A stretch of DNA of 64,000 nucleotides from an uncultured Candidatus Saccharibacteria bacterium (GTDB lineage: Bacteria > Patescibacteriota > Minisyncoccia > Phycocordibacterales > UBA6065). The notes under the pieces were generated by a model that made no database searches, had not been told where the DNA came from, and worked only from the letters and a program-made list of their open reading frames with translations. The stretch spans positions 63,633-127,632 of the forward strand of contig CAZBVG010000004.1 in the NCBI GenBank assembly GCA_964495425.1. Reading direction: 5' to 3'. Within the stretch, counting starts at the first letter, position 1. Every line of letters begins with the position of its first letter. The position numbers and the translations under genes are program-made. Shown here in pieces: positions 12,168-54,326 of the stretch.

Positions 12168-12171
12168 ATGA

Positions 12172-35277: not shown

Positions 35278-35293
35278 CACGTGACGGTACCTT

Positions 35294-35981: not shown

Positions 35982-35989
35982 GCTCAACA

Positions 35990-36016
35990 AAACTCCGGAT
36001 TATCTCCGGAGTTTTG
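35990..36016. terminator. Terminator after the small ORF
   Basis: actccggattatctccggagt hairpin followed by TTTT. Confidence 0.55.
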
Positions 36017-36060
36017 ATTTAGAGGGAAGTATGCTACATTGATTCTCGTCTCGATCATTT

Positions 36061-36133
36061 GCGGGTGTAGTATAACGGCTCATTATGCTTGCCTTCCAAG
36101 CAAGATACGCGGGTTCGACTCCCGCCACCCGCA
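36061..36133 (+). tRNA. tRNA-Gly (anticodon TCC)
   Basis: Acceptor GCGGGTG/CACCCGC, anticodon stem-loop CTTGC-CTTCCAA-GCAAG, T-arm GCGGG-TTCGACT-CCCGC. Confidence 0.8.
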
Positions 36134-36204
36134 CAACAAGAAAGTAACCAGGAAACATAAAAACCGCATTACTGCGGTTTTTATGTTAGTGCTCGGGCAG
36201 TTAA

Positions 36205-41676: not shown

Positions 41677-42414
41677 TTAATTTCGAGTCGTTGAAGCGGT
41701 GGTGGTTGCTGGTCGGTCGCGCTTTTCTTTATCTCGCATGAGCGTTCCCTGTAAACCCTTCATGTCCGCGATAACTTGCATAAGAGACTTATGTGCATCC
41801 TGAATAGCAGTCTGAGCTGTTTTTACGGCCGTCTTGAGCGCTGCCGCGGTAGTTGTTGGGGTGGAAGTTGAAATTGGGGTCGAGAGAACTGCCTGAACTG
41901 AAGTGCTTGCTATTGCTAGTTTTGACACAGCAATTGAAAGATCTGCTCGAGCGCTGGTTGTAGTAGCCCCAGCTTGTTCGAACTTGGTTAGGCGAGACTC
42001 GATACGTGCTTTTATTGAATTAAGTTCCTCGAGTGCGTGTGAAAGTCGCTTTCCTGCATTTTTCACAATGAGATCGAGACGATCTGACGCCTTTTCTCGG
42101 ACCTCAGCACGCAATTCCTTTATATCTTCGCGTTTCTCGCTCATTTTTTCTTTAACTTCTTCTCTTTTATCCTTCACTTCCTCTCTTTTATCCTGAAGTT
42201 CCTGCTTCTTAGCTTCGATCTGTGCCTTAAGCACGTCTCGCTTTTCAAGGATTGGTCTTGAAGTGCTTGCTTCGCCGCGAACCTTAGCATTTACCTTTAC
42301 TGGCGTAGTTGAGCCATTAACAGTAAGTTCAAGAGTTGCTTCTTCTGCAGCTGCGGTAAGTGCCCACGAAAAGGCGAGTGCGGAAGCGGCAATGATGAGT
42401 AATGATTTTTTCAT
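41677..42414 (-). CDS. Secreted coiled-coil protein
   Basis: Signal peptide and K/E/R-rich heptad-like repeats (KREEVKDKREEVKEK). Confidence 0.5.
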   Translation of the reverse strand: MKKSLLIIAASALAFSWALTAAAEEATLELTVNGSTTPVKVNAKVRGEASTSRPILEKRDVLKAQIEAKKQELQDKREEVKDKREEVKEKMSEKREDIKELRAEVREKASDRLDLIVKNAGKRLSHALEELNSIKARIESRLTKFEQAGATTTSARADLSIAVSKLAIASTSVQAVLSTPISTSTPTTTAAALKTAVKTAQTAIQDAHKSLMQVIADMKGLQGTLMRDKEKRDRPATTTASTTRN

Positions 42415-43110: not shown

Positions 43111-44262
43111 TTATTCTGCGCTTGCTTCTGAAGCTTCTACGACAGCATCCTTTGCACCACCTACTGGTCTGATATCAATTTTCCAGCCTGTAAGTTTTGC
43201 TGCTAATCGAACGTTTTGTCCGCCTTTACCAATTGCAAGTGACTGCTGGTCCTCCTTCACTTCAACGGTCGCGGTTTTGGTTGCCTCATCAAGCACAATA
43301 GAGGAAGCCTTAGCTGGTGAAAGAGAGTCTTCGATAAACTTCTTTGGATCAGCTGACCATTCAATAATATCGATTTTTTCACCACCGAGTTCTGAAGTTA
43401 CTGTGGTAACACGTACACCTCGCTGACCTACAAGAGAGCCGATAGGATCAATGTGTGAGTCGTGTGAGATAACAGCAATCTTTGATCGTGAACCAGCTTC
43501 TCGTGCAACCGCTTTTACTTCAACCGTCTTGTTTGCGATCTCAGGAGCCTCGATTTCAAAGAGTTTTTCAAGGAATTTAGGATGTGATCGAGAAAGTTTG
43601 AGGAAAACGCCTCGAGGAGACTCTTCTACACGGAAAAGATATGCGCGAAGGCGCTCACCTTGCTTGAAATGCTCGCTTCGGATCTGCTCTTCAAAAGGCA
43701 AAACACCTGTAGCACGGCCCATATCAACGAAAATGGTGCCTCGTTCTACTCTCTGAACAGTACCAGAGACAATATCACCCTCTCGTTTACCATATTCACC
43801 CAATACTGAGACCTTTTCAGCCTCTCGGATCTTCTGAATGATCACCTGTTTAGCTGTTTGAGCAGCAATTCGGCCAAAATCATCCTTTGGCTCGAGCGGG
43901 AAGAGCATTTCCTCGTCCAATTCCACGTTTTTCTTGATGAGGCGTGCTTCGTCAATCCAGATATGGTGTTCCGGGTTGTAGCGCACTCGTTCATCGTCCT
44001 CTGCAAGCTCAGGAAGCTCTTCTCCCTCAGGAATATTGATGACTTTTGTGTCATCTACAGCAATTTTGACCTGGAAAAACTCGGTTGCTCCGGTATTTAC
44101 GTCAAAAGTGGCTCGAACGATCTGTCCGCGCTTGCCGTACTCCTTTTTATAAGCGGTCGCCAAAGCCATTTCTATGGCTTCAATTATCTTTTCTTTGGGA
44201 ATTCCGCGTTCTTCCTCGAGCTGTCCGAGTACAGAATGGATTACTTTAAGATCAAACAACAT
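43111..44262 (-). CDS. nusA: Transcription termination/antitermination factor NusA
   Basis: S1 domain plus two KH domains (GKGGQNVRLAAKLTGWKIDI). Confidence 0.9.
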   Translation of the reverse strand: MLFDLKVIHSVLGQLEEERGIPKEKIIEAIEMALATAYKKEYGKRGQIVRATFDVNTGATEFFQVKIAVDDTKVINIPEGEELPELAEDDERVRYNPEHHIWIDEARLIKKNVELDEEMLFPLEPKDDFGRIAAQTAKQVIIQKIREAEKVSVLGEYGKREGDIVSGTVQRVERGTIFVDMGRATGVLPFEEQIRSEHFKQGERLRAYLFRVEESPRGVFLKLSRSHPKFLEKLFEIEAPEIANKTVEVKAVAREAGSRSKIAVISHDSHIDPIGSLVGQRGVRVTTVTSELGGEKIDIIEWSADPKKFIEDSLSPAKASSIVLDEATKTATVEVKEDQQSLAIGKGGQNVRLAAKLTGWKIDIRPVGGAKDAVVEASEASAE

Positions 44263-44436: not shown

Positions 44437-45678
44437 GTGATGAAATCTCTTTTTTCTAAAATAGTTTTTGCTCTTCTTTTTTCTTTGTTCCCACTTTTTG
44501 CCTCTGCAGATATCGGAAACATTACTGGTTGGGCATGGTCAGATACAATTGGCTGGATTAGTTTTACCTGCGTAAATACCGGTACGTGTGCAAGTTCGTC
44601 AGGAGTTGACTATGGTGTGACTCAAAATGCGAGCGGGGATCTAACTGGATATGCTTGGTCAGAAAATATTGGTTGGATACAGTTTGGAGGACTTTCTGGT
44701 TTTCCTGCTGGAGCAGGGACGACTGCTGCAAATGCGCGTCTTACGGGCGGTACTGTTACGGGTTGGGCGCGAGCTTGCTCAGGAACTCAAGGTGGAAATT
44801 GTTCGAGTATGACGAGTCGAACTGACGGTTGGGATGGATGGATTGCTCTTTCTGGTGCAACCTATGGAGTAACAAAATCTGGTGACAATTTCCTCGGATA
44901 TGGCTGGGGAAGTGATGTTATAGGCTGGACTCTCTTTGATATTCAAAATAAATTCCCAGCTATATGTTCAAATTGTGGACCGCAGACCGGCGGAAGCAGC
45001 GCTGATCTTGATGTGCGAAGCGGTGGTGCGGGCGGCCCAACAATTGTAGGTAATGGTGCTGTGCCATTTGGAACCATTCCTACTTTCGTATGGACAATCA
45101 ACTCAACAACGATGTCTTGTGACGTTACAAAACTCGCTGGAGGCACAGCATTTACTGCAATAACGGGCAGGACGACCTCAGGTTCTCAATCTGGAAATGC
45201 ACTCACATCACCAGGACTTCACACGTATCATCTTGAGTGTACTAACCCTGCGTTTACAAAAGACGTAAGCTTCACAGTTGCTCCGATGGCGGTTGGATTC
45301 TCACTCGGTGGAACCGAAACCGCCCGAATACAATTCCTCGGTCCAGGCGCAGCGAATTCAGAAATTAAGACTATATATGTATCACCCGGTGGAGGATTTA
45401 CTGAGCCGGTAAGCATTTCTATTACTGGTTACCCAACACCTCCAGCTGGCACGACATTCACCTATTCATTAGGAGGCGGTGCGTTCGTTGCAAATCCAGC
45501 TCCGGTCGTTATTTCAAGTCCATATGGAAGCGGGCAGACATTCCAGGTGAGAGTTTCAAAACCTATTACTACACCATATACAATTACACTCACGGGTCAG
45601 TCAGCATCAGCCGGACCGGTAACAAAGGACATTATTCTTGATCCTCGTGGATTCGATCCGTCATTTAATGAAATTTAA
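44437..45678 (+). CDS. Secreted protein with W-rich G-W/Y-AWS-x-x-IGWI-x-F repeats
   Basis: Signal peptide, then four copies of the x-G-[WY]-[AG]-W-[SG]-x-x-IGW-[IT]-x-F motif, then a Gly/Thr-rich beta-type C-terminal part. Confidence 0.5.
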   Translation: MMKSLFSKIVFALLFSLFPLFASADIGNITGWAWSDTIGWISFTCVNTGTCASSSGVDYGVTQNASGDLTGYAWSENIGWIQFGGLSGFPAGAGTTAANARLTGGTVTGWARACSGTQGGNCSSMTSRTDGWDGWIALSGATYGVTKSGDNFLGYGWGSDVIGWTLFDIQNKFPAICSNCGPQTGGSSADLDVRSGGAGGPTIVGNGAVPFGTIPTFVWTINSTTMSCDVTKLAGGTAFTAITGRTTSGSQSGNALTSPGLHTYHLECTNPAFTKDVSFTVAPMAVGFSLGGTETARIQFLGPGAANSEIKTIYVSPGGGFTEPVSISITGYPTPPAGTTFTYSLGGGAFVANPAPVVISSPYGSGQTFQVRVSKPITTPYTITLTGQSASAGPVTKDIILDPRGFDPSFNEI

Positions 45679-45949
45679 TATGAAAAAAGTTTTACTCATA
45701 CTACTCGTGTTGCTTGTTGTCGGAGGAGCTGTGTATTGGTGGATGCAGACACAGAAAAAGCCGACCGGGCCAACTTCAGAAGAGACCGCTCGAGCACTCG
45801 ATCGACTCTCCGGTAAGACGTATGAAGAACAGCCGCTCACACCAGCACAGAAACAGGCAATCGACGGACTATCAGCACAGCAAGAACAAAAGAGTGCAGC
45901 AGAGATAAAGGCAGAGGAAGACGCATTAAAATTATTACAAGGAAAATAA
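45638..45949 (+). CDS. Small membrane-anchored protein
   Basis: 103 aa with an N-terminal TM. It overlaps the upstream gene end. Confidence 0.4.
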   Translation: MILVDSIRHLMKFNMKKVLLILLVLLVVGGAVYWWMQTQKKPTGPTSEETARALDRLSGKTYEEQPLTPAQKQAIDGLSAQQEQKSAAEIKAEEDALKLLQGK

Positions 45950-45968
45950 GCACATAACATTACGAACC

Positions 45969-46559
45969 ATGACCCGAATTACAACGATTACCACAGCAGT
46001 CATAAGCGCAATACTACTCGCGCTCTTGCCAGTTGGTGCAAGTGCGTGGACAGGTCCAACGGCAGCGCCGCCAAGTAATAACGTGGCAGCGCCTCTTAAC
46101 GTTTCTGGTAGCGCACAGGCAAAGGGCGCAGGACTTCTTCTTGCGACAAGTGCAACAACCTACGGTCTTTTGGTTCAGAACGGTAATGTGGGTATCGGAC
46201 TTCTTAACCCAGGCTACAAACTTGAAATCGCAGGCAGTGTAGGAGCAAGTGCTTTCTTCTATACATCTGACAAGTCGCTTAAGACTAATATTTCTCCTCT
46301 TTCAGGATCACTTGCAAAGGTTCTTAATCTTCAGGGAGTCTCATTTAATTGGAAGGAGGGCGGTGAAAAGAGCGTAGGTCTTGTTGCTCAGGATGTGGAG
46401 AAGGTGTATCCAGAACTTGTTCATACGAACCCACAGAGCGGTCTTAAATCAGTTGAATACGGAAATCTCGTCGCCCCTCTTATTGAAGCAATCAAAGAAC
46501 AGCAGAAGCAGATTGATGACTTAAAAGCAGAGGTTAAGGCGTTAAAGGGAAATAATTAA
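45969..46559 (+). CDS. Tail-fibre-like protein with a C-terminal intramolecular chaperone (peptidase S74-like) domain
   Basis: N-terminal GNVGIGLLNPGYKLEIAGS is typical of tail-fibre-domain proteins. The C-terminal SDKSLKTNISPLSGSLAKVLNLQGVSFNWKE...VGLVAQDVEKVYPELV matches the autoproteolytic chaperone domain of phage tail spikes and endosialidases. Confidence 0.6.
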   Translation: MTRITTITTAVISAILLALLPVGASAWTGPTAAPPSNNVAAPLNVSGSAQAKGAGLLLATSATTYGLLVQNGNVGIGLLNPGYKLEIAGSVGASAFFYTSDKSLKTNISPLSGSLAKVLNLQGVSFNWKEGGEKSVGLVAQDVEKVYPELVHTNPQSGLKSVEYGNLVAPLIEAIKEQQKQIDDLKAEVKALKGNN

Positions 46560-46564
46560 AACGT

Positions 46565-47002
46565 ATGGAAACAAATAACAATAACAATAAGAATGTATTG
46601 GTGATTGGATTGGTTATCGTGGTAGTGGCAGTAGTGGCATTTCTTTATTATCGTGACAAGGGAACAACCCAAAACACGTCAACAGGAACGACTCCTGAAC
46701 TTACTCAGGATCAAAGAAAAGCTCTAGTAACAGCGATTGTTAAAGAAGCAAAAGAGACAAATGTGATTGATATTAGTGCATGTAAACCATTCCCTGAAAC
46801 AGCTCAATTCAAACAGACAGCAGCTGTAACATTCAAAAATCAAGATTCGATGTCACATGAAATTGTATTCACACCTCAACACAAGTTCACAGTACCAGGA
46901 AAAGGTGAATATAAGATCGTCTTCGATTTCTTCCAGTATCCTGGCGTTAGGCATTATACGTGTGATTCAAAATCAGTAGGAACCGTTCTCATTATTAAAT
47001 AA
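46565..47002 (+). CDS. Membrane-anchored small protein
   Basis: 145 aa with N-terminal TM VLVIGLVIVVVAVVAFLYY. Confidence 0.4.
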   Translation: METNNNNNKNVLVIGLVIVVVAVVAFLYYRDKGTTQNTSTGTTPELTQDQRKALVTAIVKEAKETNVIDISACKPFPETAQFKQTAAVTFKNQDSMSHEIVFTPQHKFTVPGKGEYKIVFDFFQYPGVRHYTCDSKSVGTVLIIK

Positions 47003-47012
47003 ACACATTCAC

Positions 47013-49403
47013 ATGAGATCTTTCGTTAAAACTATAGGTACGACCGCAGTCGCGATACTGTCGCTTTTTACAGCTACAGTTGCTTATGCTGATGTAAATA
47101 CCTATGTTTTGACGGACCACAAGGTTGAGTCAGGTACAACTGCTCGAGTGGATGAATGGGGTATTTGTTTTGATGTAACAAATGGAATTCAGAATCCTCC
47201 AATTCATATTCCTACAAAAACTGCTGCAGAGTGGGCATCATTTTATAACAATACACCACCATATGTATCACTCGCGCCTTGTGGAGGAACAGTGCAAGGA
47301 TGTACTGATACAACTGCAACAAATTATAATCCGTCTGCGACAGCAAATGACGGTTCTTGTACATATGCGCCCGCCTGTAATTCTAATGCGGGAAACATTT
47401 GTTTTTCTACACCAAACGTCTGTGGGCAGTCGAATCCTGGTGTAATTGATTGTGGTGGAGTATGTAACGCGATCACACCGCCAAATAGTAACTGTATAAC
47501 TGTTGTTGAGGGCTGTACTGATGCAAGTGCCACAAATTATAATCCAAATGCCAATGTAGATAACGGGTCCTGTGTCTACCCAGTAGGTTGTGATACGAAT
47601 GCTGGAAATAGCTGTGTCTCAGGCGCAAATGTATGCGGGCAGACTGGTTCAGGTGTTATTCAGTGTAATGGTACGTGTAGCGCGGTAACACCACCGAATT
47701 CGAATTGTCCCATGACTGTTTATGGTTGTACTGATCCGGCTGCAAATAATCACAATCCGAATGCGAACTTCGATGATGGTTCTTGTACTTACAATCCGGT
47801 TTGTGTTTCAAATGTAAATCAAGCATGTACGTCTAGTACCAATGCGTGTGGAGACAGTGGAGTTGGAACAATTCAATGTGATGGATCATGTAGCGCAACT
47901 GTTCCCTCAGTTCCTTCGAATTTAGGCGCTTCATGTAATTCAGGAGGTAACAATTGTGGTGATGTGAACGTTGGCTCAATTCAATGTGATGGTAGCTGTA
48001 GTGCAAGCCAACCGGCAGATAGAGCATCATGTTCAACATGTCCATCTGCAGGTCAACCATGTCAGTCTGCATCAAACGCGTGTGGAGATACTGCTTCAGG
48101 CACTGTTGATGGGGGATCTTGTACGTGTAATGCGGTTCCGCCAGTCACCGCTTCAAATTTTGGAGATTCATGTACTTCTGCTGCAAACGCTTGTGGGGCA
48201 ACTTCTGCGGGTACAATTCAATGTGACGGTTCATGTTCTGCAAGTATTCCTGCTAATCCAGCAAATCTCGGGGCGCCGTGCTCTACAAGCCCAAATGCCT
48301 GTGGTGCAGTAGGTGCGGGTACAATTCAATGTGACGGTTCATGTTCTGCGGGAATGCCATCTCTTCCAGCATCATATGGAAACACATGTACTTCAGGTGC
48401 AAACAATTGTGGTGCAACAGGGTCGGGCACAATAGGTTGTAGTGGTTCCTGCTCAGCAACTACACCCGCTGATGTTCCAAATGTAGGAGGGGGTTGTATG
48501 TCAGGACCAAATAATTGTGGAGATCGGGGTTCGGGTGCTATGCAATGCGATGGATCATGTAGTGCAACACAGCCTGGAGATATTAGTGGTATAGGAGGAA
48601 TTTGTTATTCAGGTGCAAATAATTGCGGTGATGTGAATACAGGTACGATGCAATGTGGTGGTTGTGATGCAGTAACGCCAGCAAATCGAACCTGTGGACC
48701 AATGGCAGTTTCTGGTTGTACGGATCCAATGGCGGACAACTACGATTCAAATGCAACAACAGATGACGGATCATGCCAAAGAACTGGTTGTACAGATCCA
48801 ATGGCGGACAACTATGATCCAAATGCAACGGGTGGTGGTGCATGTACCTATTCGATTAATTATGGTTGTACAGACCCTGGTGCAGATAATTATGATCCAT
48901 TTGCTGATGCGGATGATGGATCATGTACATATCCTTCAGCATGTGTACCTCAAGTTTGTAATGGTGCGGCATACTGGGACAGCGGATCGTGCTCATGTGC
49001 ATGCGCACCGTTCTACCATGAGGAAAATGGAGATTGTGTAGCGGATCCTATGGATCCATGTGTGAGTGACCCGTGGCTTGTTGGCTGTAGTGGTGATCCG
49101 TGTCTACTAGACCCAACTTTCCCAGGATGTTCTGATCCATGTGAACTGGACCCAGGTTACCCTGGTTGTCAGCCAATTGATCCTTGTACTCAAGATCCAA
49201 GCTCGCCAGCATGTAATCCTTGCGGTTTTGATGAAGTAAGACAGCCAGATGGTTCATGTGCAGTTGACTGTGATGCGCATCCGGCAAGTTGTATACAGTC
49301 GTGCGTCGCAGGGGATGAAGAGTGTCTTTGTAGGAATGCAGGAAAATCATGGGATGGGTATAGTTGTTGCGAAAACCTAGATGGATACGGGTATTGTATG
49401 TAA
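47013..49403 (+). CDS. Large secreted cysteine-rich tandem-repeat protein
   Basis: Signal peptide. About 6 copies of GCTD-x-x-A-x-NY(N/D)-P-x-A-x-x-DDGSC-x-Y, and about 11 copies of a ~35-aa unit C-x-S-x-x-N-x-CG-x-x-x-x-G-[TS]-[IM]-QCDGSCSA. Cys-dense C-terminus. Confidence 0.6.
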   Translation: MRSFVKTIGTTAVAILSLFTATVAYADVNTYVLTDHKVESGTTARVDEWGICFDVTNGIQNPPIHIPTKTAAEWASFYNNTPPYVSLAPCGGTVQGCTDTTATNYNPSATANDGSCTYAPACNSNAGNICFSTPNVCGQSNPGVIDCGGVCNAITPPNSNCITVVEGCTDASATNYNPNANVDNGSCVYPVGCDTNAGNSCVSGANVCGQTGSGVIQCNGTCSAVTPPNSNCPMTVYGCTDPAANNHNPNANFDDGSCTYNPVCVSNVNQACTSSTNACGDSGVGTIQCDGSCSATVPSVPSNLGASCNSGGNNCGDVNVGSIQCDGSCSASQPADRASCSTCPSAGQPCQSASNACGDTASGTVDGGSCTCNAVPPVTASNFGDSCTSAANACGATSAGTIQCDGSCSASIPANPANLGAPCSTSPNACGAVGAGTIQCDGSCSAGMPSLPASYGNTCTSGANNCGATGSGTIGCSGSCSATTPADVPNVGGGCMSGPNNCGDRGSGAMQCDGSCSATQPGDISGIGGICYSGANNCGDVNTGTMQCGGCDAVTPANRTCGPMAVSGCTDPMADNYDSNATTDDGSCQRTGCTDPMADNYDPNATGGGACTYSINYGCTDPGADNYDPFADADDGSCTYPSACVPQVCNGAAYWDSGSCSCACAPFYHEENGDCVADPMDPCVSDPWLVGCSGDPCLLDPTFPGCSDPCELDPGYPGCQPIDPCTQDPSSPACNPCGFDEVRQPDGSCAVDCDAHPASCIQSCVAGDEECLCRNAGKSWDGYSCCENLDGYGYCM
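48199..48345. repeat. Intragenic near-perfect direct DNA repeat (~38 bp units ~106 bp apart)
   Basis: gcgggtacaattcaatgtgacggttcatgttctgc occurs at 48202-48236 and again at 48308-48342. Confidence 0.7.
48715..48850. repeat. Intragenic tandem DNA repeat (~46 bp units, ~75 bp period)
   Basis: tgtacagatccaatggcggacaactacgat... at 48717 and tgtacagatccaatggcggacaactatgat... at 48792. Confidence 0.7.
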
Positions 49404-49431
49404 CGCTCACCGGTAAGAACATTAGAGTATT

Positions 49432-50883
49432 ATGAGAAGTATTAAATATTGGTCACTCTGTGTCTTGTGCGGAATTGCTTTAATTTTCTCATTATATAAA
49501 CTAGGCGATCAATCACTTTGGATTGATGAGGGTTATTCAATTAATGCAGCTGAAGGCATTCAGGAGCATGGTTTACCAGTACTAGGTTCGGGAAAGACCT
49601 ATGTTAAAGGAATTGCCTCTACCTATTTAATGGCCTTAAGCATGTCGATGTTCGGTTTTGAGGCGACGAATCCTTGGTCAGCACGATTGCCTTCAGCGAT
49701 GTTTTGGCTAATGACAATTGTAGCGATGTATTTTGTGTCAAAAAGATTTTTTGGCTCAAATACCATCGCTTTTTTGTCATCAGCAATGTTAACTTTTTTA
49801 TCGTGGGAGATAGCGTGGGCAAGGCAGGCGAGGGGATACATAGGCATGCAATTTTTTTCACTCGTGTCATTCTTTTTCTTGTATATGTGGTTTAAGGAAA
49901 GAAAGCACAAAAGTCTTTATCTTTGTTTTATCTTTTTAGGAGTTTCAATACTGTTCCATCCATCATCGGCGGTACTTATATTGCCTATGACCGGAAGCGT
50001 GATATTTGATGTGTTGAAAAGGAGAGAGGAAAGGGTGGGGCCTGCAGTATTAGCAGTCGCGGTATTGTTGATTACAGCTATATTTTTTTATGAATTTCTA
50101 TCAATTCAATTTGTAATAAGATATTCACCATCTTATTTTATTGCGATTAAGGAAAATATATTAGGGCTTTCTATTTTGGCGCTCGCAGCACCTTTTTTAC
50201 TGGCCGTAGATACAATAAACAAAAAGAAGATTTTTTTACTTGCACTTCTAGTTTTGATACCTATTTGTTTTTTGTCTTTTTATCATTATTCAACGCAACA
50301 ACGGTACTTATTCGTGCTCCTTCCGTATATTGTGCTCTTGTCAGCATTTGCTGCGGTAAGAATTTCCAAAATAGTTTTTCGGGGCAGAGCCGGGCTTGTT
50401 ATTTTGGGTGCAATTATTTTGGTTTCAGTAATCAGCTTTGATTCTTTCACTTTTTACCCACATGCGTTTTATTATGTGGAAAAGCGCTCACCGCAGCCAA
50501 ATTTTAAAGAAGCATATTTACTTATTAAAGAAAGACGAACGGGGGAAGATATTGTTGTATCTTCATACACACACCTTTCCCAAATTTATTTGAGAGATAA
50601 GGGGTATTGGTGGCCAATTGCTTTAACAACCAATAAAGACGAAATAATTCGTAATTCAATTGATGAAGTTGATTATTATACTGGCGCGCCCAAAATTAAT
50701 GGGATCGATGAACTAAAACTCCTTTTAGATAAAAATTCAGGATATATAGTATTTGATGGCTTATCGTGGATTCGATCTGGAAAAAAGGTGGCGGAGTTAA
50801 TTCGTTCCTTGAAATTAGAGTTGGTATATCACACAGGTATAAAACTAGATGAAATTTGGGTTTATAGATTTGTAAAAAAATAA
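49432..50883 (+). CDS. GT-C fold glycosyltransferase (PMT/ArnT/GT83-like)
   Basis: 483 aa polytopic protein. The first periplasmic loop has LWIDEGYS, with the DE motif typical of PMT_2/ArnT-family polyprenol-P-sugar-dependent transferases. Confidence 0.65.
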   Translation: MRSIKYWSLCVLCGIALIFSLYKLGDQSLWIDEGYSINAAEGIQEHGLPVLGSGKTYVKGIASTYLMALSMSMFGFEATNPWSARLPSAMFWLMTIVAMYFVSKRFFGSNTIAFLSSAMLTFLSWEIAWARQARGYIGMQFFSLVSFFFLYMWFKERKHKSLYLCFIFLGVSILFHPSSAVLILPMTGSVIFDVLKRREERVGPAVLAVAVLLITAIFFYEFLSIQFVIRYSPSYFIAIKENILGLSILALAAPFLLAVDTINKKKIFLLALLVLIPICFLSFYHYSTQQRYLFVLLPYIVLLSAFAAVRISKIVFRGRAGLVILGAIILVSVISFDSFTFYPHAFYYVEKRSPQPNFKEAYLLIKERRTGEDIVVSSYTHLSQIYLRDKGYWWPIALTTNKDEIIRNSIDEVDYYTGAPKINGIDELKLLLDKNSGYIVFDGLSWIRSGKKVAELIRSLKLELVYHTGIKLDEIWVYRFVKK

Positions 50884-50913
50884 AAAGTGACTCATTTCTG
50901 AGTCACTCGAATA
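50884..50913. terminator. Bidirectional terminator
   Basis: gtgactcatttctgagtcac hairpin. Confidence 0.55.
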
Positions 50914-51870
50914 TTATTCGTGGTTCGCAACGGCAACTGTTTGTCCTTGCTTGATGGGAGTCATGGGCAATCGTGCCACGACTAGTCGCACCAATTTCGA
51001 GGCCATTTTTGGATCATGGGCCTCAAGATAGGGCGTCTTGCCGTCCACTTTTACCTGGAATTCTGCAATTTCATCATCGGTAGCGAGCCTCCAGCCAGGC
51101 ATAAGCTTTTGACCATCTTCCAGTGCACGGAGTACAGCATCTTTTTCAATGCCGAAATAACCATACATGAAATTTGCGTCATGCATACTAACACCTGGAG
51201 AAGATGGGATGAATCCCACATGTCGTGTATCGAGGCTTCGAATCACGTACTGCTGATAACCAGGATAACTGCGCTGCTCACCGAAAGTCTCAAAAAACTT
51301 TTGACGGTAGTAGTCAGATGCAATTTTGTATCCTGTACCCATGAAAGCCTTGAGTTTTTCAGGGAGCTTTTCAGGTGGTACGGTCGAATATAGAAGATAA
51401 TACCGAGCATTATCTAGATCCAGGTACTTGTCGCTTATGCGGACCAGCCGTTCAGTTACTGTCTTGGGGATCAAGGCAGATGCTGACGTGGTCTTATTAA
51501 CCGGAGTGGTAACGTAAGAGGTCACGTTACTGAACTTCGGCAACTCGCCGACTTCAGCGATGAATTTCTCCATCTCTTCGTCGGTAGCGATGCGATAGGG
51601 AACGCCTCGATTGCTGATGGCAGCGATGAACGCTTCCTTGCTCATGTCCGTGTAGACATGATTGAAACGAACACCGTCGATGACTGTATAGCGTGACGTG
51701 GGGACGATATTGGTGCCGGCGGCGCTGCGCAAGGGGATCTTGCTCAGGGCAGGAGTAACCGAATCCATCTTCTTTACCGAAGGGGCTGTCGAGCAGCCAC
51801 CGAAGGTGAACATCACACTAACGAACGCCAGAAGGCGGAAGAGTAGACTGAAGAGTCTATTCGTTTTCAT
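50914..51870 (-). CDS. Putative lipoprotein
   Basis: Signal peptide with a lipobox-like FTFGGC. Confidence 0.45.
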   Translation of the reverse strand: MKTNRLFSLLFRLLAFVSVMFTFGGCSTAPSVKKMDSVTPALSKIPLRSAAGTNIVPTSRYTVIDGVRFNHVYTDMSKEAFIAAISNRGVPYRIATDEEMEKFIAEVGELPKFSNVTSYVTTPVNKTTSASALIPKTVTERLVRISDKYLDLDNARYYLLYSTVPPEKLPEKLKAFMGTGYKIASDYYRQKFFETFGEQRSYPGYQQYVIRSLDTRHVGFIPSSPGVSMHDANFMYGYFGIEKDAVLRALEDGQKLMPGWRLATDDEIAEFQVKVDGKTPYLEAHDPKMASKLVRLVVARLPMTPIKQGQTVAVANHE

Positions 51871-52017: not shown

Positions 52018-52311
52018 CTAGGGAGATTTTGTTCGGTTTTTCTTGATTAGATGAATATTGTAGATTGCGAGAAAAAGGGGAAAAACATTGGTTAAAACAC
52101 CAATATAGTCTCCTCGACCGAATGTAAAATAGAGAAGAAGAAGGAGGCTTCCTGTTAGACTCACATACCAGAATCGGGCAGTGAGTATACTATTTTTCGC
52201 TTTTCTTGACTCGAGTGTCTGTAATAGCCATCGTGACGTAAAAATGAGGAATCCGCAGATTCCAATAATATGCCATATGGTAGGTACTTCCGTACTTAAT
52301 ATGTTATTCAT
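52018..52311 (-). CDS. Lipid-A-disaccharide synthase N-terminal domain-like (LAB_N) small membrane protein
   Basis: 97 aa with three TM helices. Its start overlaps the upstream GT2 stop (8-bp overlap). This is the usual GT2 partner arrangement. Confidence 0.5.
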   Translation of the reverse strand: MNNILSTEVPTIWHIIGICGFLIFTSRWLLQTLESRKAKNSILTARFWYVSLTGSLLLLLYFTFGRGDYIGVLTNVFPLFLAIYNIHLIKKNRTKSP

Positions 52312-52963
52312 GGTGTGTATGTTTCATCAATCGTCTTACAGTATATAGATCCCGTATGCCGTGAAGAGCCCTTTTACTAATTGTGTACTTTGTTTTACCT
52401 CCGATTCTTTTTCGTGTGCTCAGTAGGACTTCTTTGCCCGAAAGTTTCTTTGCTTCTAGCAAACTGGGTATGAATCGATGCATTCCATCAAATAGATGAA
52501 GGTGTGCTAAGTGATGTTTTCGAATGAGCTTCATCGCACCGGTATCTCGAGCGCTATCCAGTGTAAATAATCTTCTTGTCCAGTTTGCAATTCTTGAAGC
52601 GGCTCGATTTATCACACTCCGTTTACGATTGATCCTAAACCCACACACAAAGTCCGCTGTTTTTGCCGCATCGATAAGTTTGCAAATATCTCGGGGGTCA
52701 CATTCACCGTCACCATCCATGAGTATACATAATTCGTTGGCGGCATTCTGTATGCCGTGCCATGTAGCATGGCTTTGTCCATTACGGGTATCAAATGCAA
52801 TAAGGCACACATTTTTTGTCCTCACTATTTCACGACTTTTATCCGTACTTCCATCATCCACCACAATAATTTCAGCCTCAGGGTGATATTTCTGTAATTC
52901 ATCAAGCACAAACCCGATGCTCTCCTCCTCGTTGTAGACCGGAATAATAATAGAAAAGCTCAT
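52304..52963 (-). CDS. GT2 family glycosyltransferase (polyprenol-phosphate sugar synthase, DPM1/ArnC-like)
   Basis: FSIIIPVYNEEESI ... VVDDGSTDKS and a DGD motif. Confidence 0.85.
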   Translation of the reverse strand: MSFSIIIPVYNEEESIGFVLDELQKYHPEAEIIVVDDGSTDKSREIVRTKNVCLIAFDTRNGQSHATWHGIQNAANELCILMDGDGECDPRDICKLIDAAKTADFVCGFRINRKRSVINRAASRIANWTRRLFTLDSARDTGAMKLIRKHHLAHLHLFDGMHRFIPSLLEAKKLSGKEVLLSTRKRIGGKTKYTISKRALHGIRDLYTVRRLMKHTHHE

Positions 52964-53045
52964 AGGTACTCATTCTAGCGCTTTTACGCCCAACAAAAAA
53001 CTCTCAAAAGAGAGTTTTTTGAAAGCATAGTATGAACCTTACGCT

Positions 53046-53765
53046 CTATTTTCCAAGAGCAGCTTTGAGGGAATTCTCGAGGGAGTCAGCTGATACTGCG
53101 CCGCCTACAACCGTATTGCCTTTCGCGGTCACGATAACTGAGTATGGGGTACCTTTTGCGCCAGCTGCAATACCTGACTGATATTGTTCTTCAACTTTCT
53201 TTGCATACTTACCACTGTCGAGACATGTCTGGAACTTTGCGCGATCTAGACCGATATACGCCGCGATATTTCCAAGCTCTGTTGGTTCTAGGCGGTTGTT
53301 AGCAGGGGTAATTTCAAAGAGTCGATCAGTGTACTTCCAGAAGGCATCGTTGCCGCCAAGTTCTGCTGCGCACTCGGTTGCTTCAGCTTCTTTTCGTGCT
53401 TTTGAGTGAAGCGCATCAAGAGGGAAGTGTCGATATACCCATGCAACCTCGCTACCGCTGTATTTAGAAACAACAGATTTTACGGTTGCGTGGAACTGCT
53501 TACAGAATGGGCATTCAAGATCTGAATACTCAAAGATCACTGCTTTTGCATTCGCATTGCCTCGAATATGATCGGTTGATGTTATCGCACCAACTTTTAC
53601 GGCAGAAGGGGCAGCTGCGGCAGTTGGTGTTCCTGCTGCGGCAACAGGAACTGCGGTGCGGACACCTCCTACATTGCTAAGTCCGAAATAGAGTCCGCCA
53701 CCGATAAAGAGCCCAGCGAGAGCAATTGATACCGGAAGCGTGAGCCAATCCATTTTTTGATCCAT
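53046..53765 (-). CDS. DsbA-like thiol:disulfide oxidoreductase, membrane-anchored
   Basis: N-terminal TM, and a CPFC active site within a thioredoxin-fold context. Confidence 0.75.
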   Translation of the reverse strand: MDQKMDWLTLPVSIALAGLFIGGGLYFGLSNVGGVRTAVPVAAAGTPTAAAAPSAVKVGAITSTDHIRGNANAKAVIFEYSDLECPFCKQFHATVKSVVSKYSGSEVAWVYRHFPLDALHSKARKEAEATECAAELGGNDAFWKYTDRLFEITPANNRLEPTELGNIAAYIGLDRAKFQTCLDSGKYAKKVEEQYQSGIAAGAKGTPYSVIVTAKGNTVVGGAVSADSLENSLKAALGK

Positions 53766-53836: not shown

Positions 53837-54292
53837 ATGACTAATCGTGCGATGAAAAGTAGGTCAAAGCGCGCTCGACCTTTTAAGATCTTTATACGAA
53901 TCCTCTCGGCTATTTTACTAGTCTCGGTGATGTATGGGGTGCTTTCTCTCGTGCTACGGCCAAACCCGATGCCACAGGTGGCGCCTAAACCCGTCGCTAC
54001 GGTTTTTATGAATAAAAACGGTATCATTCCTGCTGAAATTATCCTTAAAAAAGGGCAGTCGGTTGAATTTATCAACAATTCGCCGGGTACATGTTCGGCG
54101 GGGGACGCATCATGTAACGTGTGGCCAGCTTCTGACCCTGAGCCATCTCATGCCAATTACCCTGAATTTGATCCTAAAAAGCCTATTGCACCGGCAAAAT
54201 CATGGATCTTTGTCTTTAACAAGGTGGGGAATTGGGGTTTTCATGATCATTTGTGGCCAAAGAACAAGGGGGTTATTCGCGTTATAGAATAA
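53837..54292 (+). CDS. Membrane-anchored hypothetical protein
   Basis: 151 aa with an N-terminal TM and a Cys/His-containing C-domain. No family assigned. Confidence 0.4.
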   Translation: MTNRAMKSRSKRARPFKIFIRILSAILLVSVMYGVLSLVLRPNPMPQVAPKPVATVFMNKNGIIPAEIILKKGQSVEFINNSPGTCSAGDASCNVWPASDPEPSHANYPEFDPKKPIAPAKSWIFVFNKVGNWGFHDHLWPKNKGVIRVIE

Positions 54293-54326
54293 TGCGCTAT
54301 AATTAATGAGATTTTAAGAGATCTCT

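What the first reader, a model, noticed from the sequence alone, without database searches (positions are those of the whole stretch)
44437..49403. Candidate surface/adhesin module: W-repeat protein, tail-fibre chaperone-domain protein and giant Cys-rich repeat protein
Five consecutive plus-strand genes all encode exported proteins. One has four G-W-AWS-x-x-IGWI-x-F repeats. One has a tail-fibre N-terminus and a C-terminal phage-type intramolecular chaperone (S74-like autoprocessing) domain. One is ~800 aa with repetitive disulfide-rich units (GCTD..A.NYNP.A..DDGSC.Y and CG....GTIQCDGSCSA). Such architectures are typical of adhesins or receptor-binding proteins. In an organism with episymbiont-like gene content they are candidates for host-cell attachment. 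The repeat families do not match any I can name.
Basis: partly seen in the sequence, partly recalled or inferred. Interest (0 to 1): 0.65.

Follow-up and report, generated by a model that had tools for sequence, protein, structure and literature searches.

The report
Cell-surface fibre cassette in CPR bacterium
Six tightly packed genes of an ultra-small (CPR/Paceibacteria) bacterium encode exported envelope proteins: a tryptophan-repeat protein, a tiny self-cleaving tail-fibre-like trimer, and a cysteine-rich repeat protein next to a sugar-adding enzyme. The core of this cassette recurs beside pilus genes in related genomes, which makes it a plausible but untested surface-display or host-attachment device.

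Summary
Genes at 44437-49403 are five co-directional ORFs, each with one N-terminal hydrophobic export segment. The W-repeats, the Peptidase_S74 domain (E=2.2e-16, invariant SDxxxK) and the 796-aa, 86-Cys protein with 6+10 repeat units are all present.

They belong to a six-gene operon (to 50883) in a Paceibacteria (CPR) genome; the sixth gene is a PMT_2 glycosyltransferase.

Comparison with 80 related loci shows a conserved cassette. It consists of the W-repeat/Ig protein, a small membrane protein and a fibre protein with a CPR-specific N-terminal motif. It usually lies between nusA and pilB-pilC-prepilin genes. S74-type fibres are specifically followed by a protein carrying the 65-aa N-domain of the Cys-rich protein, with swappable C-terminal payloads.

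The W-repeat domain has no Pfam or PDB match, yet about 6,000 50%-identity cluster representatives match it.

The GCTD...DDGSC unit is not unknown: it abounds in Bacteroidota T9SS cargo.

My best reading is a Sec-exported surface-display module analogous to Bdellovibrio MAT fibres, matured by S74 autocleavage, disulfide formation and probably O-glycosylation. Host attachment remains inference. It is a new variant of a known kind and of moderate interest.

The parts
44437..45678 (+). g1: Sec-exported W-repeat/Ig protein (413 aa; the public gene call starts at 44440). Signal peptide is aa 1-24. The Trp-rich W-repeat domain is aa 25-172 (44509-44952). Two Ig-like beta-sandwiches span aa 187-405. 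The extreme C-terminal tail is conserved (P..F.P.F.E.).
45668..45949 (+). g2: small bitopic membrane protein (89-93 aa). It has an N-terminal TM segment followed by three loose repeats of the type (T/S)xxExxxxLxxLxA.
   Evidence: Similar small TM ORFs lie next to the W-protein gene in about 30 related loci, although the iterative search is partly driven by the TM segment. A gene of 93-97 aa sits at this position in L001-L005.
45969..46559 (+). g3: minimal tail-fibre-like protein (196 aa). Signal peptide is aa 1-26. The CPR-specific N-motif plus a short GNVGIG..P.YKL stalk is aa 27-99 (46047-46265). The Peptidase_S74 intramolecular chaperone with a C-terminal coiled coil is aa 100-196 (46266-46556). 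The predicted autocleavage site is before Ser100.
   Evidence: Pfam PF13884, E=2.2e-16. PHROG tail-fibre C-termini match with E down to 7e-36. PDB sequence hits: 8jov at 2.7e-5 and 6f45 at 4.1e-5. S100, D101 and K105 are invariant in 30 homologues. NCBI names homologues 'tail fiber domain-containing protein'.
46565..47002 (+). g4: bitopic membrane protein (145 aa) with a beta-rich ectodomain of unknown family. It recurs in the closest related loci (L009, L020).
   Evidence: No PDB sequence match. The cupredoxin-like impression is an unverified inference from the sequence.
47013..49403 (+). g5: secreted mosaic Cys-rich protein (796 aa). Signal peptide is aa 1-26. The conserved 'g5N' domain is aa 27-92 (47091-47288). 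Six A units (GCTD..NY[ND]..DDGSC) and ten B units (N.CG..GTIQCDGSCSA) span aa 93-642 (47289-48938). A Cys/Pro/Asp-rich C-terminal region is aa 643-796.
   Evidence: Only one full-length homologue was found: P0122, 69% identity, same architecture. A units are abundant in Bacteroidota PF18962 (T9SS) proteins. The g5N-domain family lies downstream of S74-type fibres. No Pfam, PHROG or PDB match. The AF2 model is unusable, pLDDT 46.9.
49432..50883 (+). g6: polytopic GT-C glycosyltransferase (PMT_2 family, 483 aa) with a WIDEG motif in the first loop.
   Evidence: Pfam PMT_2 E=1.8e-11 and PMT E=1.2e-5. It has seven hydrophobic segments and a DE motif at residue 32-33. It starts 28 nt after g5. The same pairing occurs in L087 and L020, and with a PF02366 PMT in L086.
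50885..50908 (.). GC-rich hairpin with T/A runs between the end of g6 and the convergent gene 50914-51870. It is the probable bidirectional terminator that closes the operon.
   Evidence: No comparable + strand terminator lies between g1 and g6.
52018..53765 (-). Probable maturation genes on the opposite strand: a LAB_N small membrane protein (52018-52311), a GT2 glycosyltransferase (52304-52963) and a DsbA/MdbA-like thiol-disulfide oxidoreductase (53046-53765).
   Evidence: GT2 E=1.9e-27; Thioredoxin_4 E=1.5e-21; DSBA E=1.5e-16. GT2 plus a PMT-type gene recur near g5N-family genes in L020, L086 and L087. The CPR-enriched MdbA-like oxidoreductase is described in PMC6744442.
54327..56075 (+). 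pilB (T2SSE ATPase with an MshEN N-domain). This is the type IV pilus gene that directly follows the cassette in many related genomes. Here it lies 7.8 kb downstream of g3 and is not followed by pilC or prepilins.
   Evidence: T2SSE E=3.8e-118. Synteny. No prepilin-type ORF occurs in the window.

Best explanation
The region is the first five genes of a six-gene operon (44437-50883) in a Paceibacteria (Parcubacteria group, CPR/Patescibacteria) genome. The operon builds and decorates a cell-surface display module.

Its core is a lineage-wide cassette of four elements:
1. A Sec-secreted protein whose highly conserved Trp-rich W-repeat domain is followed by two Ig-like domains.
2. A small bitopic membrane protein.
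3. A Sec-secreted fibre protein with a CPR-specific N-terminal docking motif. Here it is in its minimal form.
4. With S74-type fibres, a secreted protein whose conserved 65-aa N-domain carries a swappable C-terminal payload. Here the payload is 16 disulfide-rich units.

Proposed mechanism:
- All parts cross the membrane through Sec.
- g3 trimerises on its C-terminal S74 intramolecular chaperone, which then cuts itself off at Ser100 (Ser-Lys dyad, SDxxxK). This leaves a very stable 73-residue trimeric beta-helical stub.
- The stub's invariant N-terminal motif docks it to a conserved envelope partner, most likely the W-repeat protein encoded next to it.
- The W-domain holds the assembly on the cell wall, acting as a non-covalent anchor, because none of the secreted proteins has a sortase, lipid or C-terminal TM anchor.
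- g5 is oxidatively folded by the nearby DsbA/MdbA-like enzyme.
- g5 is probably O-glycosylated on its Ser/Thr-rich repeats by the co-operonic PMT_2 enzyme, using a lipid-linked sugar made by the neighbouring GT2.
- g5 forms the variable, outward-facing element, attached through its conserved N-domain.

The module is ancestrally encoded directly upstream of the type IV pilus genes and plausibly works with pili in contact with other cells.

Shown: the export signals (heuristically), S74 membership and catalytic residues, domain architecture, operon structure, and conserved co-occurrence.
Inferred: trimerisation and cleavage, who docks to whom, wall anchoring, glycosylation, and any role in host attachment.
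For: Export and extracellular character:
- Each protein has a single N-terminal hydrophobic segment, and g1, g3 and g5 have AxA sites.
- g1 has invariant Cys pairs and Ig-like folds.
- W-domain relatives co-occur only with PKD, fn3, CARDB, LamG and Lcl_C domains.

S74:
- PF13884 E=2.2e-16. Phage tail-fibre C-termini match at E down to 7e-36. S100, D101 and K105 are invariant.
- The SDxxxK motif and self-cleavage are established for the family (PMC10769870).

Conserved cassette:
- The order nusA(-) | W-protein | ~95-aa TM protein | g3N-type protein | pilB | pilC | prepilins is seen in L003, L005 and many of 80 genome loci.
- A g3N-type gene lies within 2.5 kb in 30 of 51 evaluable loci.
- It follows 13 of 14 evaluable full-length g1 orthologues.
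- pilB lies downstream in 20 of 44-48 loci, seven times with a gap of 90 nt or less.

Anchor or adaptor logic:
- The W-domain is the most conserved part: 0.63 identity against 0.42-0.48 for the Ig domains. It is reused N-terminally with many different C-terminal domains.
- The g3N motif is conserved while lengths range from 55 to 1692 aa, and only 14 of 68 members carry S74. This parallels the S74 and non-S74 MAT fibres, which share a conserved N-terminal domain.

g5N link:
- A g5N-family gene follows S74-type fibres in 6 of 8 evaluable loci, against 0 of 28 loci with only non-S74 fibres. Fisher p=1.4e-5, not corrected for phylogeny.
- Payloads range from Cys repeats to Tyr-rich repeats to a Kelch propeller.

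Maturation:
- PMT_2 is in the operon, and GT2 and a DsbA-like gene lie nearby.
- PMT and GT2 recur beside g5N genes in three genomic contexts, including one without W or S74 genes.
- g5 is 19% Ser+Thr and 10.8% Cys.

Not a prophage:
- The flanks are housekeeping genes (nusA, ppa, tig, clpP).
- g1 and g5 have no PHROG hits.
- No W-domain relatives were found in IMG/VR.
Against: - There is no experimental or expression evidence of any kind.
- Signal peptides were judged by eye and hydrophobicity, not by a dedicated predictor.
- The W-domain has no recognisable relative among known wall-binding repeats, so its anchor role is inferred only from its conservation pattern and position (Pfam none at E<=1; fold searches returned only Ig hits).
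- Docking of g3 or g5 onto g1 rests on gene adjacency alone.
- Conserved order in small CPR genomes can be inherited rather than functional: nusA, tpiA and pgk are equally syntenic.
- The pilus block is separable from the cassette. Three loci go from the fibre gene to tpiA without pilB, 24 of 44 loci have no pilB within reach, and in this window pilB is 7.8 kb away without pilC or pilins.
- A 73-residue mature stub is too short to act as a reaching fibre.
- The g5 structure could not be modelled (pLDDT 46.9).
- PMT_2-family enzymes also glycosylate lipids and glycans, so the substrate of g6 is unknown.
Confidence: 0.5

Rival explanations
1. The cassette is a physical accessory of the type IV pilus. 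The W-protein, small TM protein and fibre would form a pilus-associated complex, such as a wall-spanning collar or exit structure, or a tip or side adhesin loaded onto the pilus, rather than an independent surface-display module.
For: The cassette is co-directional with pilB-pilC-prepilins and often immediately upstream of them. Seven loci have a gap of 90 nt or less between the W gene and pilB. CPR lack PilQ and must pass pili through a wall and S-layer (PMC6744442). The MAT-fibre paper also raises possible interplay of such fibres with type IV pili.
Against: None of the five proteins has a prepilin (class III) signal. The pilus block is missing next to the cassette in many loci, and tpiA follows directly in three. 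W-domain proteins are multi-copy with many unrelated C-terminal domains, which does not fit a dedicated machine part. In this genome pilB is 7.8 kb away and no pilC or pilins lie in the window.
Confidence: 0.2
2. These are ordinary self-envelope structural proteins, such as wall-associated or S-layer-like glycoproteins and their maturation enzymes, with no role in recognising other cells.
For: The core parts (W-domain, g3 N-motif) are highly conserved rather than diversifying. The mature g3 is only 73 residues. Glycosyltransferase and DsbA neighbours are typical of envelope biogenesis loci. The cassette sits in a housekeeping context near nusA.
Against: The payload position is hypervariable, carrying Cys repeats, Tyr-rich repeats, a Kelch propeller, or long against minimal fibres. 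That pattern is typical of interaction or recognition surfaces. S74-matured beta-helical fibres are otherwise known from receptor-binding proteins of phages and predatory bacteria.
Confidence: 0.22
3. This is a remnant of a prophage or a horizontally acquired phage receptor-binding cassette (tail fibre plus adhesin).
For: g3 residues 44-196 match the C-termini of dozens of phage tail-fibre PHROGs and solved phage fibres. A fibre followed by a separately encoded variable adhesin recalls phage gp37/gp38-type arrangements (from memory; a lead only).
Against: Only the short stalk preceding the IMC and the IMC domain itself are phage-like. g1, g2, g4 and g5 have no significant PHROG hits. The flanks are nusA, ppa, tig, clpP and rny, and the arrangement is syntenic across many Paceibacteria. 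No integrase, capsid or other tail genes are present. No W-domain relative was found in 2.9 million viral contigs. G+C is unremarkable.
Confidence: 0.03
4. This is a Sec-dependent, donor-strand-exchange pilus analogous to the recently described CPR Pam pili, with g1 as an Ig-fold pilin or anchor subunit.
For: [quoted passage not shown] The tandem Ig domains of g1 hit RbmA (Foldseek E=5e-6), and the Pam terminator PamR is described as RbmA-like.
Against: Pam homologues were reported mainly in Saccharimonadia and Microgenomatia, not Paceibacteria. The AF2 model of g1 shows two complete beta-sandwiches with no obviously missing strand. No PapD/FimC-like chaperone gene was recognised in the operon. 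The RbmA and chaperone hits are generic Ig matches with TM 0.15-0.25.
Confidence: 0.05

Closest known systems
Bdellovibrio bacteriovorus MAT (mosaic adhesive trimer) fibres, S74 and non-S74 subfamilies (PMC10769870)
   Same: Both are chromosomally encoded, signal-peptide-bearing bacterial fibre proteins of an organism that lives on other cells. Both have a conserved region directly after the signal peptide, proposed to bind the producer's own surface. Both have a variable beta-helical body and tip. In both, a subset ends in an S74 chaperone/protease with an SDxxxK motif while others have different termini.
   Different: The conserved N-terminal element here is a motif of about 20-30 residues (WTGPTxxPPxxNxxxPLN), not a ~130-aa beta-rich domain. 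Sequence similarity to solved MAT fragments is insignificant (E 0.4-0.7). The window's member is minimal, with a 73-residue mature part against fibres ~550 Å long. It is also embedded in a conserved cassette with a W-repeat protein, a small TM protein and a g5N-domain protein, next to pilus genes.
Phage tail fibres and tailspikes with a C-terminal intramolecular chaperone (Peptidase_S74; K1F endosialidase, T5 pb1, T4-like long tail fibre tips)
   Same: The C-terminal domain is homologous, with the Ser-Lys dyad, and is preceded by the same kind of beta-helical stalk repeat. The expected mechanism is also the same: trimerisation-dependent folding followed by self-cleavage (established for the family).
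   Different: The gene is cellular and Sec-exported rather than part of a virion. Nothing N-terminal of residue 44 is phage-like. There are no neighbouring phage genes.
Non-covalent cell-wall anchoring repeats of monoderm bacteria (choline-binding CW_binding_1, ChW, WxL, SLH, GW modules)
   Same: The W-domain consists of short aromatic-rich (Trp/Gly) beta-hairpin repeats placed at one end of secreted proteins that otherwise lack an anchor. It is reused with many different passenger domains and is more conserved than the passengers.
   Different: No sequence match to any of these families was found (no Pfam hit at E<=1). The fold searches returned only Ig-domain matches. The binding partner is unknown, and the resemblance is functional analogy only.
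Protein O-mannosylation and oxidative folding of secreted proteins in Actinobacteria (Pmt/GT39 with polyprenol-phosphate-mannose synthase; MdbA/DsbA)
   Same: A GT-C PMT-family enzyme with a DE motif, a GT2 enzyme and a DsbA/MdbA-like oxidoreductase are encoded beside a Ser/Thr- and Cys-rich secreted protein. The CPR-enriched MdbA-like family has been noted before (PMC6744442).
   Different: The operon enzyme matches PMT_2 (45 bits) better than the canonical PMT model (25.5 bits). The substrate and the sugar are unknown, and no glycosylation evidence exists.
Bacteroidota T9SS cargo proteins carrying GC[TM]D..A.NY[ND]..A..DDGSC repeats
   Same: They carry the same ~25-residue unit, present in hundreds of proteins with PF18962 or CHU_C sorting domains.
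   Different: g5 has no T9SS C-terminal domain and comes from a monoderm-like CPR organism. It combines this unit with a CPR-type N.CG..GTIQCDGSCSA unit and a g5N attachment domain. The unit itself has no Pfam model or known function.
Pam pili of CPR bacteria (10.64898/2026.03.03.709456)
   Same: [quoted passage not shown]
   Different: Pam pili come from different classes (Saccharimonadia, Microgenomatia). No chaperone-like genes and no truncated Ig domain were detected here. The relationship was not testable by sequence with the tools available.

Membership tests
Peptidase_S74 / intramolecular chaperone of endosialidase (g3) | Significant match to the family model at the C-terminus of the protein | tested here: met
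   PF13884 E=2.2e-16, 60.3 bits against a gathering score of 22, residues 100-152. PHROG tail-fibre families match with E down to 7e-36, always at their C-terminal ends.
Peptidase_S74 / intramolecular chaperone of endosialidase (g3) | Catalytic Ser-Lys dyad in an SDxxxK motif at the domain boundary | tested here: met
   SDKSLK at residues 100-105. S100, D101 and K105 are invariant in 30 homologues. The motif is as defined in PMC10769870.
Peptidase_S74 / intramolecular chaperone of endosialidase (g3) | Preceded by a trimeric beta-helical fibre segment | tested here: inconclusive
   A GNVGIG..P.YKL.I.G stalk motif is present, and PHROG alignments extend back to residue 44-60. However, only about 55 residues are available and no trimer model could be made.
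Peptidase_S74 / intramolecular chaperone of endosialidase (g3) | Trimerisation-dependent autoproteolysis releasing the chaperone | not testable with these tools
   This needs expression of g3 and of S100A and K105A variants, followed by SDS-PAGE and mass spectrometry.
Bdellovibrio MAT fibre family | Conserved ~130-aa beta-rich N-terminal domain directly after the signal peptide | tested here: not met
   g3 has only a conserved motif of about 20-30 residues. phmmer hits to MAT structures 8on4, 8oml and 8ond have E 0.4-0.73.
Bdellovibrio MAT fibre family | Signal peptide, variable trimeric body, and an S74 or alternative C-terminal tip within one paralogous family | tested here: met
   68 g3N-type proteins of 55-1692 aa were found, 14 of them with S74, and all have an N-terminal hydrophobic signal. 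This is an analogous architecture, not homology.
Type IV pilins / pseudopilins | Class III signal peptide (G|F-T-L-I-E) followed by a hydrophobic N-terminal helix | tested here: not met
   No ORF in the window, including g1-g5, matches the motif. The genes after pilC in L003 do match.
Known aromatic wall-binding repeats (CW_binding_1, ChW, WxL, SLH, GW) for the W-domain | Match to the family profile | tested here: not met
   g1 has no Pfam family at E<=1. Nine other W-domain proteins have none over that region. NCBIfam gives none above cutoff.
Known aromatic wall-binding repeats (CW_binding_1, ChW, WxL, SLH, GW) for the W-domain | Binding to a cell-wall polymer | not testable with these tools
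   This needs a binding assay of the recombinant W-domain with Paceibacteria (or surrogate) sacculi and glycopolymers.
T9SS cargo (for g5, because of the GCTD..DDGSC units) | C-terminal Por_Secre_tail or CHU_C sorting domain in an organism with a T9SS | tested here: not met
   g5 has no Pfam hit and ends in a Cys-rich region. The organism is a Patescibacterium.
PMT / PMT_2 GT-C glycosyltransferases (g6) | Profile match above gathering score, polytopic membrane topology, and a DE motif in the first extracytoplasmic loop | tested here: met
   PMT_2 scores 45 bits against a cutoff of 26.1, and PMT scores 25.5 against 22.7. There are seven hydrophobic segments and a WIDEG motif at residues 30-34.
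PMT / PMT_2 GT-C glycosyltransferases (g6) | Transfers sugar to Ser/Thr of a secreted protein (here g5 or g1) | not testable with these tools
   Only gene adjacency supports this, in three genomic contexts.
Pam pilins (CPR donor-strand-exchange pili) | C-terminal truncated Ig domain plus donor linker strand; PapD-like membrane-anchored chaperones in the operon | tested here: inconclusive
   The AF2 model of g1 shows two apparently complete sandwiches, and no chaperone-like family was detected.

The most novel reading that the evidence does not exclude
Paceibacteria possess a CPR-specific, modular surface-display system. It has three parts:
- a new Trp-repeat fold (the W-domain; 5,954 matching 50%-identity cluster representatives, no Pfam or PDB relative) that serves as the cell-wall-bound docking platform;
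- a short N-terminal 'WTGPT...PLN' tag that loads interchangeable trimeric fibres (S74-matured or not) onto it;
- a 65-aa g5N adaptor domain that hangs swappable payloads (disulfide-rich glycosylated repeats, Tyr-rich repeats, Kelch propellers) on the S74-matured stub.

The system would be encoded beside, and would cooperate with, the type IV pilus as the host-recognition apparatus of these episymbionts. It would be a bacterial counterpart of a phage baseplate-fibre-adhesin arrangement.
Probability: 0.2. Interest if true: 0.8.

Novelty: new variant of a known kind. Interest (0 to 1): 0.55.

Why it matters
How CPR/Patescibacteria recognise and hold on to their hosts is a central open question. 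Apart from type IV pili and the newly described Pam pili, almost no molecular players are known, especially for the huge and largely uncultured class Paceibacteria.

This locus offers concrete, testable candidates:
- a very large uncharacterised domain family (the W-repeat domain) that looks like a general anchoring or docking module;
- a family of MAT-like fibres sharing a CPR-specific N-terminal tag;
- an adaptor domain with exchangeable payloads that is specifically linked to S74-matured fibres.

If the docking model is right, it would define the surface-display logic of a major bacterial lineage and give handles (conserved tags, variable tips) for predicting host range from metagenomes. 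If it is wrong, the genes are still a well-delimited example of envelope glycoprotein biogenesis in CPR bacteria.

Tried and rejected
1. Structure of g5: AF2 with a 7-sequence alignment gave mean pLDDT 46.9. It was not used for fold search, so the folds of the A and B units remain unknown.
3. Sequence searches of solved structures with g1 (as a profile), g5, the g5N domain and g4 found nothing.
4. g4 as a paralogue of the cupredoxin-like ORF upstream of pilB: BLASTP E=0.94, rejected.
5. Prophage hypothesis: rejected on genomic context, PHROGs and the viral-contig scan.
6. Recent repeat expansion or strain-variable repeat number in g5: there are no DNA tandem arrays. The only full-length relative (69% identity) has the same architecture, 6 A units and 9-10 B units.
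7. Prepilin nature of any of the five proteins: rejected.
8. The iterative search for the g2 family drifted onto unrelated small TM proteins on the other strand. Only the adjacency-supported members were used.
9. Taxon names for distant W-domain proteins: the cluster look-up returned no names.
10. Literature: no paper in the held library links S74 or tail-fibre proteins with CPR, apart from a passing remark in the Pam-pilus preprint.

Full report
WHAT IS THERE

The reported interval contains five co-directional + strand ORFs:
- g1: 44437-45678, 413 aa
- g2: 45668/45680-45949, about 90 aa
- g3: 45969-46559, 196 aa
- g4: 46565-47002, 145 aa
- g5: 47013-49403, 796 aa

The gaps between them are -11, 19, 5 and 10 nt. 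A sixth gene, g6 (49432-50883), starts 28 nt after g5. The only convincing terminator-like hairpin lies at 50885-50908, in front of a convergent gene. The unit is therefore a six-gene operon that diverges from nusA (43111-44262, minus strand).

The window is part of a 180-kb metagenomic contig. All named homologues of g1 and g3 come from the Parcubacteria/Paceibacteria part of the Patescibacteria (CPR), for example Candidatus Taylorbacteria. The rest of the window fits such an organism: dnaA/dnaN, a monoderm-type T4SS cluster, and few metabolic genes.

CHECKING THE OBSERVATION

Each of the five proteins has exactly one hydrophobic 19-mer, and it is at the N-terminus. g1, g3 and g5 show classical signal peptides with AxA cleavage sites (FASA|D, GASA|W, AYA|D). 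These sites are conserved in the family alignments. g2 and g4 have a long hydrophobic stretch without such a site and are more likely signal-anchored. No dedicated signal-peptide predictor was available.

g1 contains three full G[WY]AWSxxIGWIxF units (residues 31, 71, 154), a compressed one (GWDGWIAL, 131) and a half unit (GWARA, 109). Ten of its eleven tryptophans lie in residues 25-172.

g3 matches Peptidase_S74 (PF13884) at E=2.2e-16. It also matches the extreme C-termini of dozens of phage tail-fibre PHROGs, with E down to 7e-36, and solved phage fibres 8jov and 6f45.

g5 has 86 cysteines (10.8%), six GCTD..NY[ND]..DDGSC units and ten N.CG....G...C.G.C units. The first part is arranged as three A+B super-repeats, followed by seven B units and three A units, and then a Cys/Pro/Asp-rich tail. 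There are no tandem repeats at DNA level, so the units are old.

g1: A W-REPEAT DOMAIN PLUS TWO Ig DOMAINS

g1 has more than 1,300 detectable relatives. Orthologues of about 400 aa share the whole architecture (alignment A1).

AF2 with this alignment gives a confident model (mean pLDDT 84.6). It shows a beta-hairpin-rich W-domain (residues 26-170) and two beta-sandwich domains (about 187-283 and 284-405).

No Pfam or NCBIfam model covers the W-domain, either in g1 or in nine other W-domain proteins.

A full HMMER pass over 1.84 billion cluster representatives finds 5,954 proteins at E<=1e-3 and 2,783 at E<=1e-10. Some carry up to nine matching stretches. In these relatives the domain is usually N-terminal and is combined with PKD, fn3, CARDB, LamG, Lcl_C or BNR modules.

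Within orthologues the W-domain is the best-conserved part: mean pairwise identity is 0.63, against 0.48 and 0.42 for the two Ig domains.

An invariant Cys228/Cys268 pair and an invariant extreme C-terminal tail (P..F.P.F[EQ]E[FIY]) are further family features.

No W-domain relative was found in 2.9 million viral contigs.

g3: A MINIMAL S74-MATURED FIBRE WITH A CPR-SPECIFIC N-TERMINAL TAG

In an alignment of 30 homologues, Ser100, Asp101 and Lys105 are invariant. These residues form the SDxxxK motif that defines the catalytic dyad of S74 chaperone/proteases (PMC10769870). Self-cleavage would release residues 100-196, which are the chaperone and its C-terminal coiled coil. That would leave a mature protein of only 73 residues.

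Phage similarity starts at about residue 44, at the GNVGIG..P.YKL stalk motif. The first about 20 mature residues, WTGPTAAPPSNNVAAPLNVS..Q.K.G.L, are not phage-like but are nearly invariant in the family.

Searching the 85 loci collected around W-domain genes with this N-terminal part finds 68 non-redundant proteins of 55-1692 aa that share the signal peptide and the tag. Only 14 of them end in S74.

This is the same logic as the Bdellovibrio MAT fibres: a conserved N-terminal element after the signal peptide, variable trimeric bodies, and S74 or non-S74 ends, with the N-terminal element proposed to bind the producer's surface. It is analogy rather than homology. The MAT N-domain is about 130 aa, and similarity to solved MAT fragments is insignificant. 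NCBI already names these CPR proteins 'tail fiber domain-containing protein'.

GENOMIC CONTEXT: A CONSERVED CASSETTE THAT NORMALLY ABUTS THE TYPE IV PILUS GENES

In more distant Paceibacteria the order is:

nusA(-) | variable secreted proteins | W-protein | ~95-aa TM protein | g3N-type protein | pilB (T2SSE) | pilC (T2SSF) | three prepilin-type genes | a ~580-aa gene | tpiA | pgk

(prepilin signals verified).

Across 80 genome loci retrieved with the g1 profile, the counts are as follows:
- A g3N-type gene lies within 2.5 kb of the W gene in 30 of 51 evaluable loci.
- It follows 13 of 14 evaluable full-length g1 orthologues.
- nusA lies upstream in 25 of 54 loci.
- pilB lies downstream in 20 of 44-48 loci, seven times with a gap of 90 nt or less.

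The link to pili is not absolute. Three loci run from the fibre gene straight to tpiA, and many W-domain paralogues sit elsewhere.

In the window itself, pilB (54327-56075, E=3.8e-118) is 7.8 kb downstream of g3. It is preceded by g4, g5, g6, a lipoprotein-like gene, LAB_N, GT2, a DsbA-like gene and a small cupredoxin-like gene. It is not followed by pilC or pilins, and no prepilin-type ORF exists in the window.

Because nusA, tpiA and pgk are equally syntenic, inherited gene order cannot be excluded as the reason for the pilus adjacency.

g5: A CONSERVED ADAPTOR DOMAIN WITH A LINEAGE-SPECIFIC Cys-RICH PAYLOAD, AND ITS MATURATION GENES

Only one full-length homologue exists: P0122, 69% identity, same architecture, same neighbours.

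The A unit is not new. The bulk of the 2,035 hits are Bacteroidota proteins with T9SS sorting domains (PF18962, CHU_C) that carry many copies of it. The B unit recurs in the protein's closest metagenomic relatives, including Paceibacteria locus L003.

The N-terminal 65 residues of mature g5 (..WGICFDVTNG...IHIPTKTAAEWASF..) define a separate family. A jackhmmer search over the loci finds 14 members.

In W-protein loci these members always lie downstream of an S74-type fibre gene. This holds in 6 of 8 evaluable loci outside the window's own genome, against 0 of 28 loci that have only non-S74 fibres. Fisher p=1.4e-5, not corrected for relatedness.

Their C-terminal parts differ completely: B-type Cys repeats, Tyr-rich YYxQG or YSEGYYPP repeats, or a Kelch beta-propeller. 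A conserved N-terminal adaptor with an exchangeable payload is the pattern expected of a protein that docks onto a conserved partner and presents a variable surface.

g6 is a PMT_2 GT-C glycosyltransferase (E=1.8e-11; DE motif at residues 32-33; seven hydrophobic segments). A GT2 gene (E=1.9e-27) and a DsbA/MdbA-like oxidoreductase (E=1.5e-21) lie within 4 kb.

PMT-type and GT2 genes recur beside g5N-family genes in L020, L087 and L086. L086 is a different genomic context with no W or S74 genes, a canonical PF02366 PMT, GtrA, and two g5N genes.

Together with 19% Ser+Thr and 10.8% Cys, this suggests that g5 is a disulfide-bonded O-glycoprotein. That is an inference by analogy with actinobacterial Pmt/Ppm1 and MdbA systems. 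The CPR-enriched MdbA-like family is noted in PMC6744442.

The AF2 model of g5 was too poor to use.

MOST LIKELY MECHANISM

I favour a Sec-exported surface-display module, with confidence of about 0.5.
- g3 trimerises on its S74 chaperone and self-cleaves at Ser100 to a stable stub.
- The conserved N-terminal tag docks the stub to a conserved envelope partner. The adjacent W-protein is the obvious candidate.
- The conserved, Trp-rich W-domain would hold the complex on the wall, because none of the secreted proteins has another anchor.
- g5, folded by DsbA and probably glycosylated by g6, is the variable outward-facing element attached through g5N.

Shown: the architecture, the catalytic residues, the operon and the co-occurrence patterns.
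Inferred: the interactions, the anchoring, the glycosylation and any role in host attachment.

RIVALS
- A physical accessory of the type IV pilus (0.2). Adjacency supports it. Against it are the lack of prepilin signals, the separability of the pilus block and the multi-copy nature of W-domains.
- Purely structural self-envelope proteins (0.22). The conservation of the core supports it. The hypervariable payload position argues against it.
- A Pam-like donor-strand-exchange pilus (0.05). The Pam preprint notes a tail-fibre-like protein co-localising with the pam operon. However, g1 shows complete Ig sandwiches and no chaperone gene was found.
- A prophage remnant (0.03). Context and the PHROG and viral scans argue against it.

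NOVELTY AND VERDICT

The S74 protein is a new, minimal member of a known kind, and its family is already auto-annotated. The A repeat is a known but unnamed repeat.

Three things appear not to have been described, judging from searches of the held literature:
- the W-repeat domain as a very large, unmodelled CPR family;
- the WTGPT-tag fibre family with S74 and non-S74 members;
- the specific pairing of S74 fibres with g5N-adaptor proteins, and the position of the cassette next to the pilus genes.

I rate this a new variant of a known kind (bacterial S74/MAT-like surface fibres with anchoring and maturation partners), with an interest score of 0.55. Its host-attachment claim remains a hypothesis.

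Noticed in passing
window 2824-5498 (- strand): dnaN (2824-3924) and dnaA (4155-5498) lie here, so the window sits next to the chromosomal replication origin region.
   Followed up: no
window 8224-14052 (- strand): A monoderm-type type IV secretion (conjugation-like) cluster: a T4SS_pilin-like protein (8224-9333), a VirB4/TraG P-loop ATPase (10362-12167) and a PrgI-family protein (12845-13285). This matches the Patescibacteria T4SS described in 10.1101/2025.01.22.634366.
   Followed up: no
window 53837-56075 (+ strand): pilB (MshEN + T2SSE) is preceded by a 151-aa membrane protein with a weak Cupredoxin_1 match (E=0.001). It is followed by unrelated minus-strand genes (SIMPL, folD, DedA-like). 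pilC and the prepilins, which follow pilB in related genomes, are absent from the window.
   Followed up: partly
window 50914-51870 (- strand); L087 4426-5358: A 318-aa lipoprotein-like protein (..FTFGGCSTAPS) with no Pfam match sits convergent to the PMT_2 gene. A 310-aa gene occupies the same position in the only close relative of the locus.
   Followed up: no
window 45655-45675 (g1 C-terminus); L004 7334-8626: The g1 family ends in an invariant tail P..F.P.F[EQ]E[FIY]-COOH with no following TM segment. The same Ig domain plus tail ends a neighbouring paralogous protein in L004, so it may be an unrecognised C-terminal interaction or sorting signal.
   Followed up: partly
L009 7327-8148; L020 11907-12698; L004 7334-8626: Long Tyr-rich low-complexity repeats (YYxQGYYY, YSEGYYPP) occur in secreted g5N-family and Ig-tail proteins of related Paceibacteria. 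They are reminiscent of adhesive or cross-linkable Tyr-rich proteins.
   Followed up: no
window 41677-42414 (- strand): A 245-aa secreted protein with a Lys/Glu-rich coiled-coil-like repeat (KREEVK...) and a Thr/Ala-rich tail has no Pfam match. A gene of similar size occupies the same position between ppa and tig in L003-L005.
   Followed up: no
window 33923-36134: A loose cluster of four tRNA genes (Arg-TCG, Gly-GCC, Pro-TGG, Gly-TCC) separated by short ORF-poor stretches.
   Followed up: no
L086 8001-15233: In an unrelated Patescibacteria contig, two g5N-family genes flank a GT2 gene, a canonical PMT (PF02366 + PMT_4TMC) and GtrA, without any W-repeat or S74 gene. This suggests that the g5N protein and its glycosylation genes form a sub-module that can exist on its own.
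   Followed up: partly
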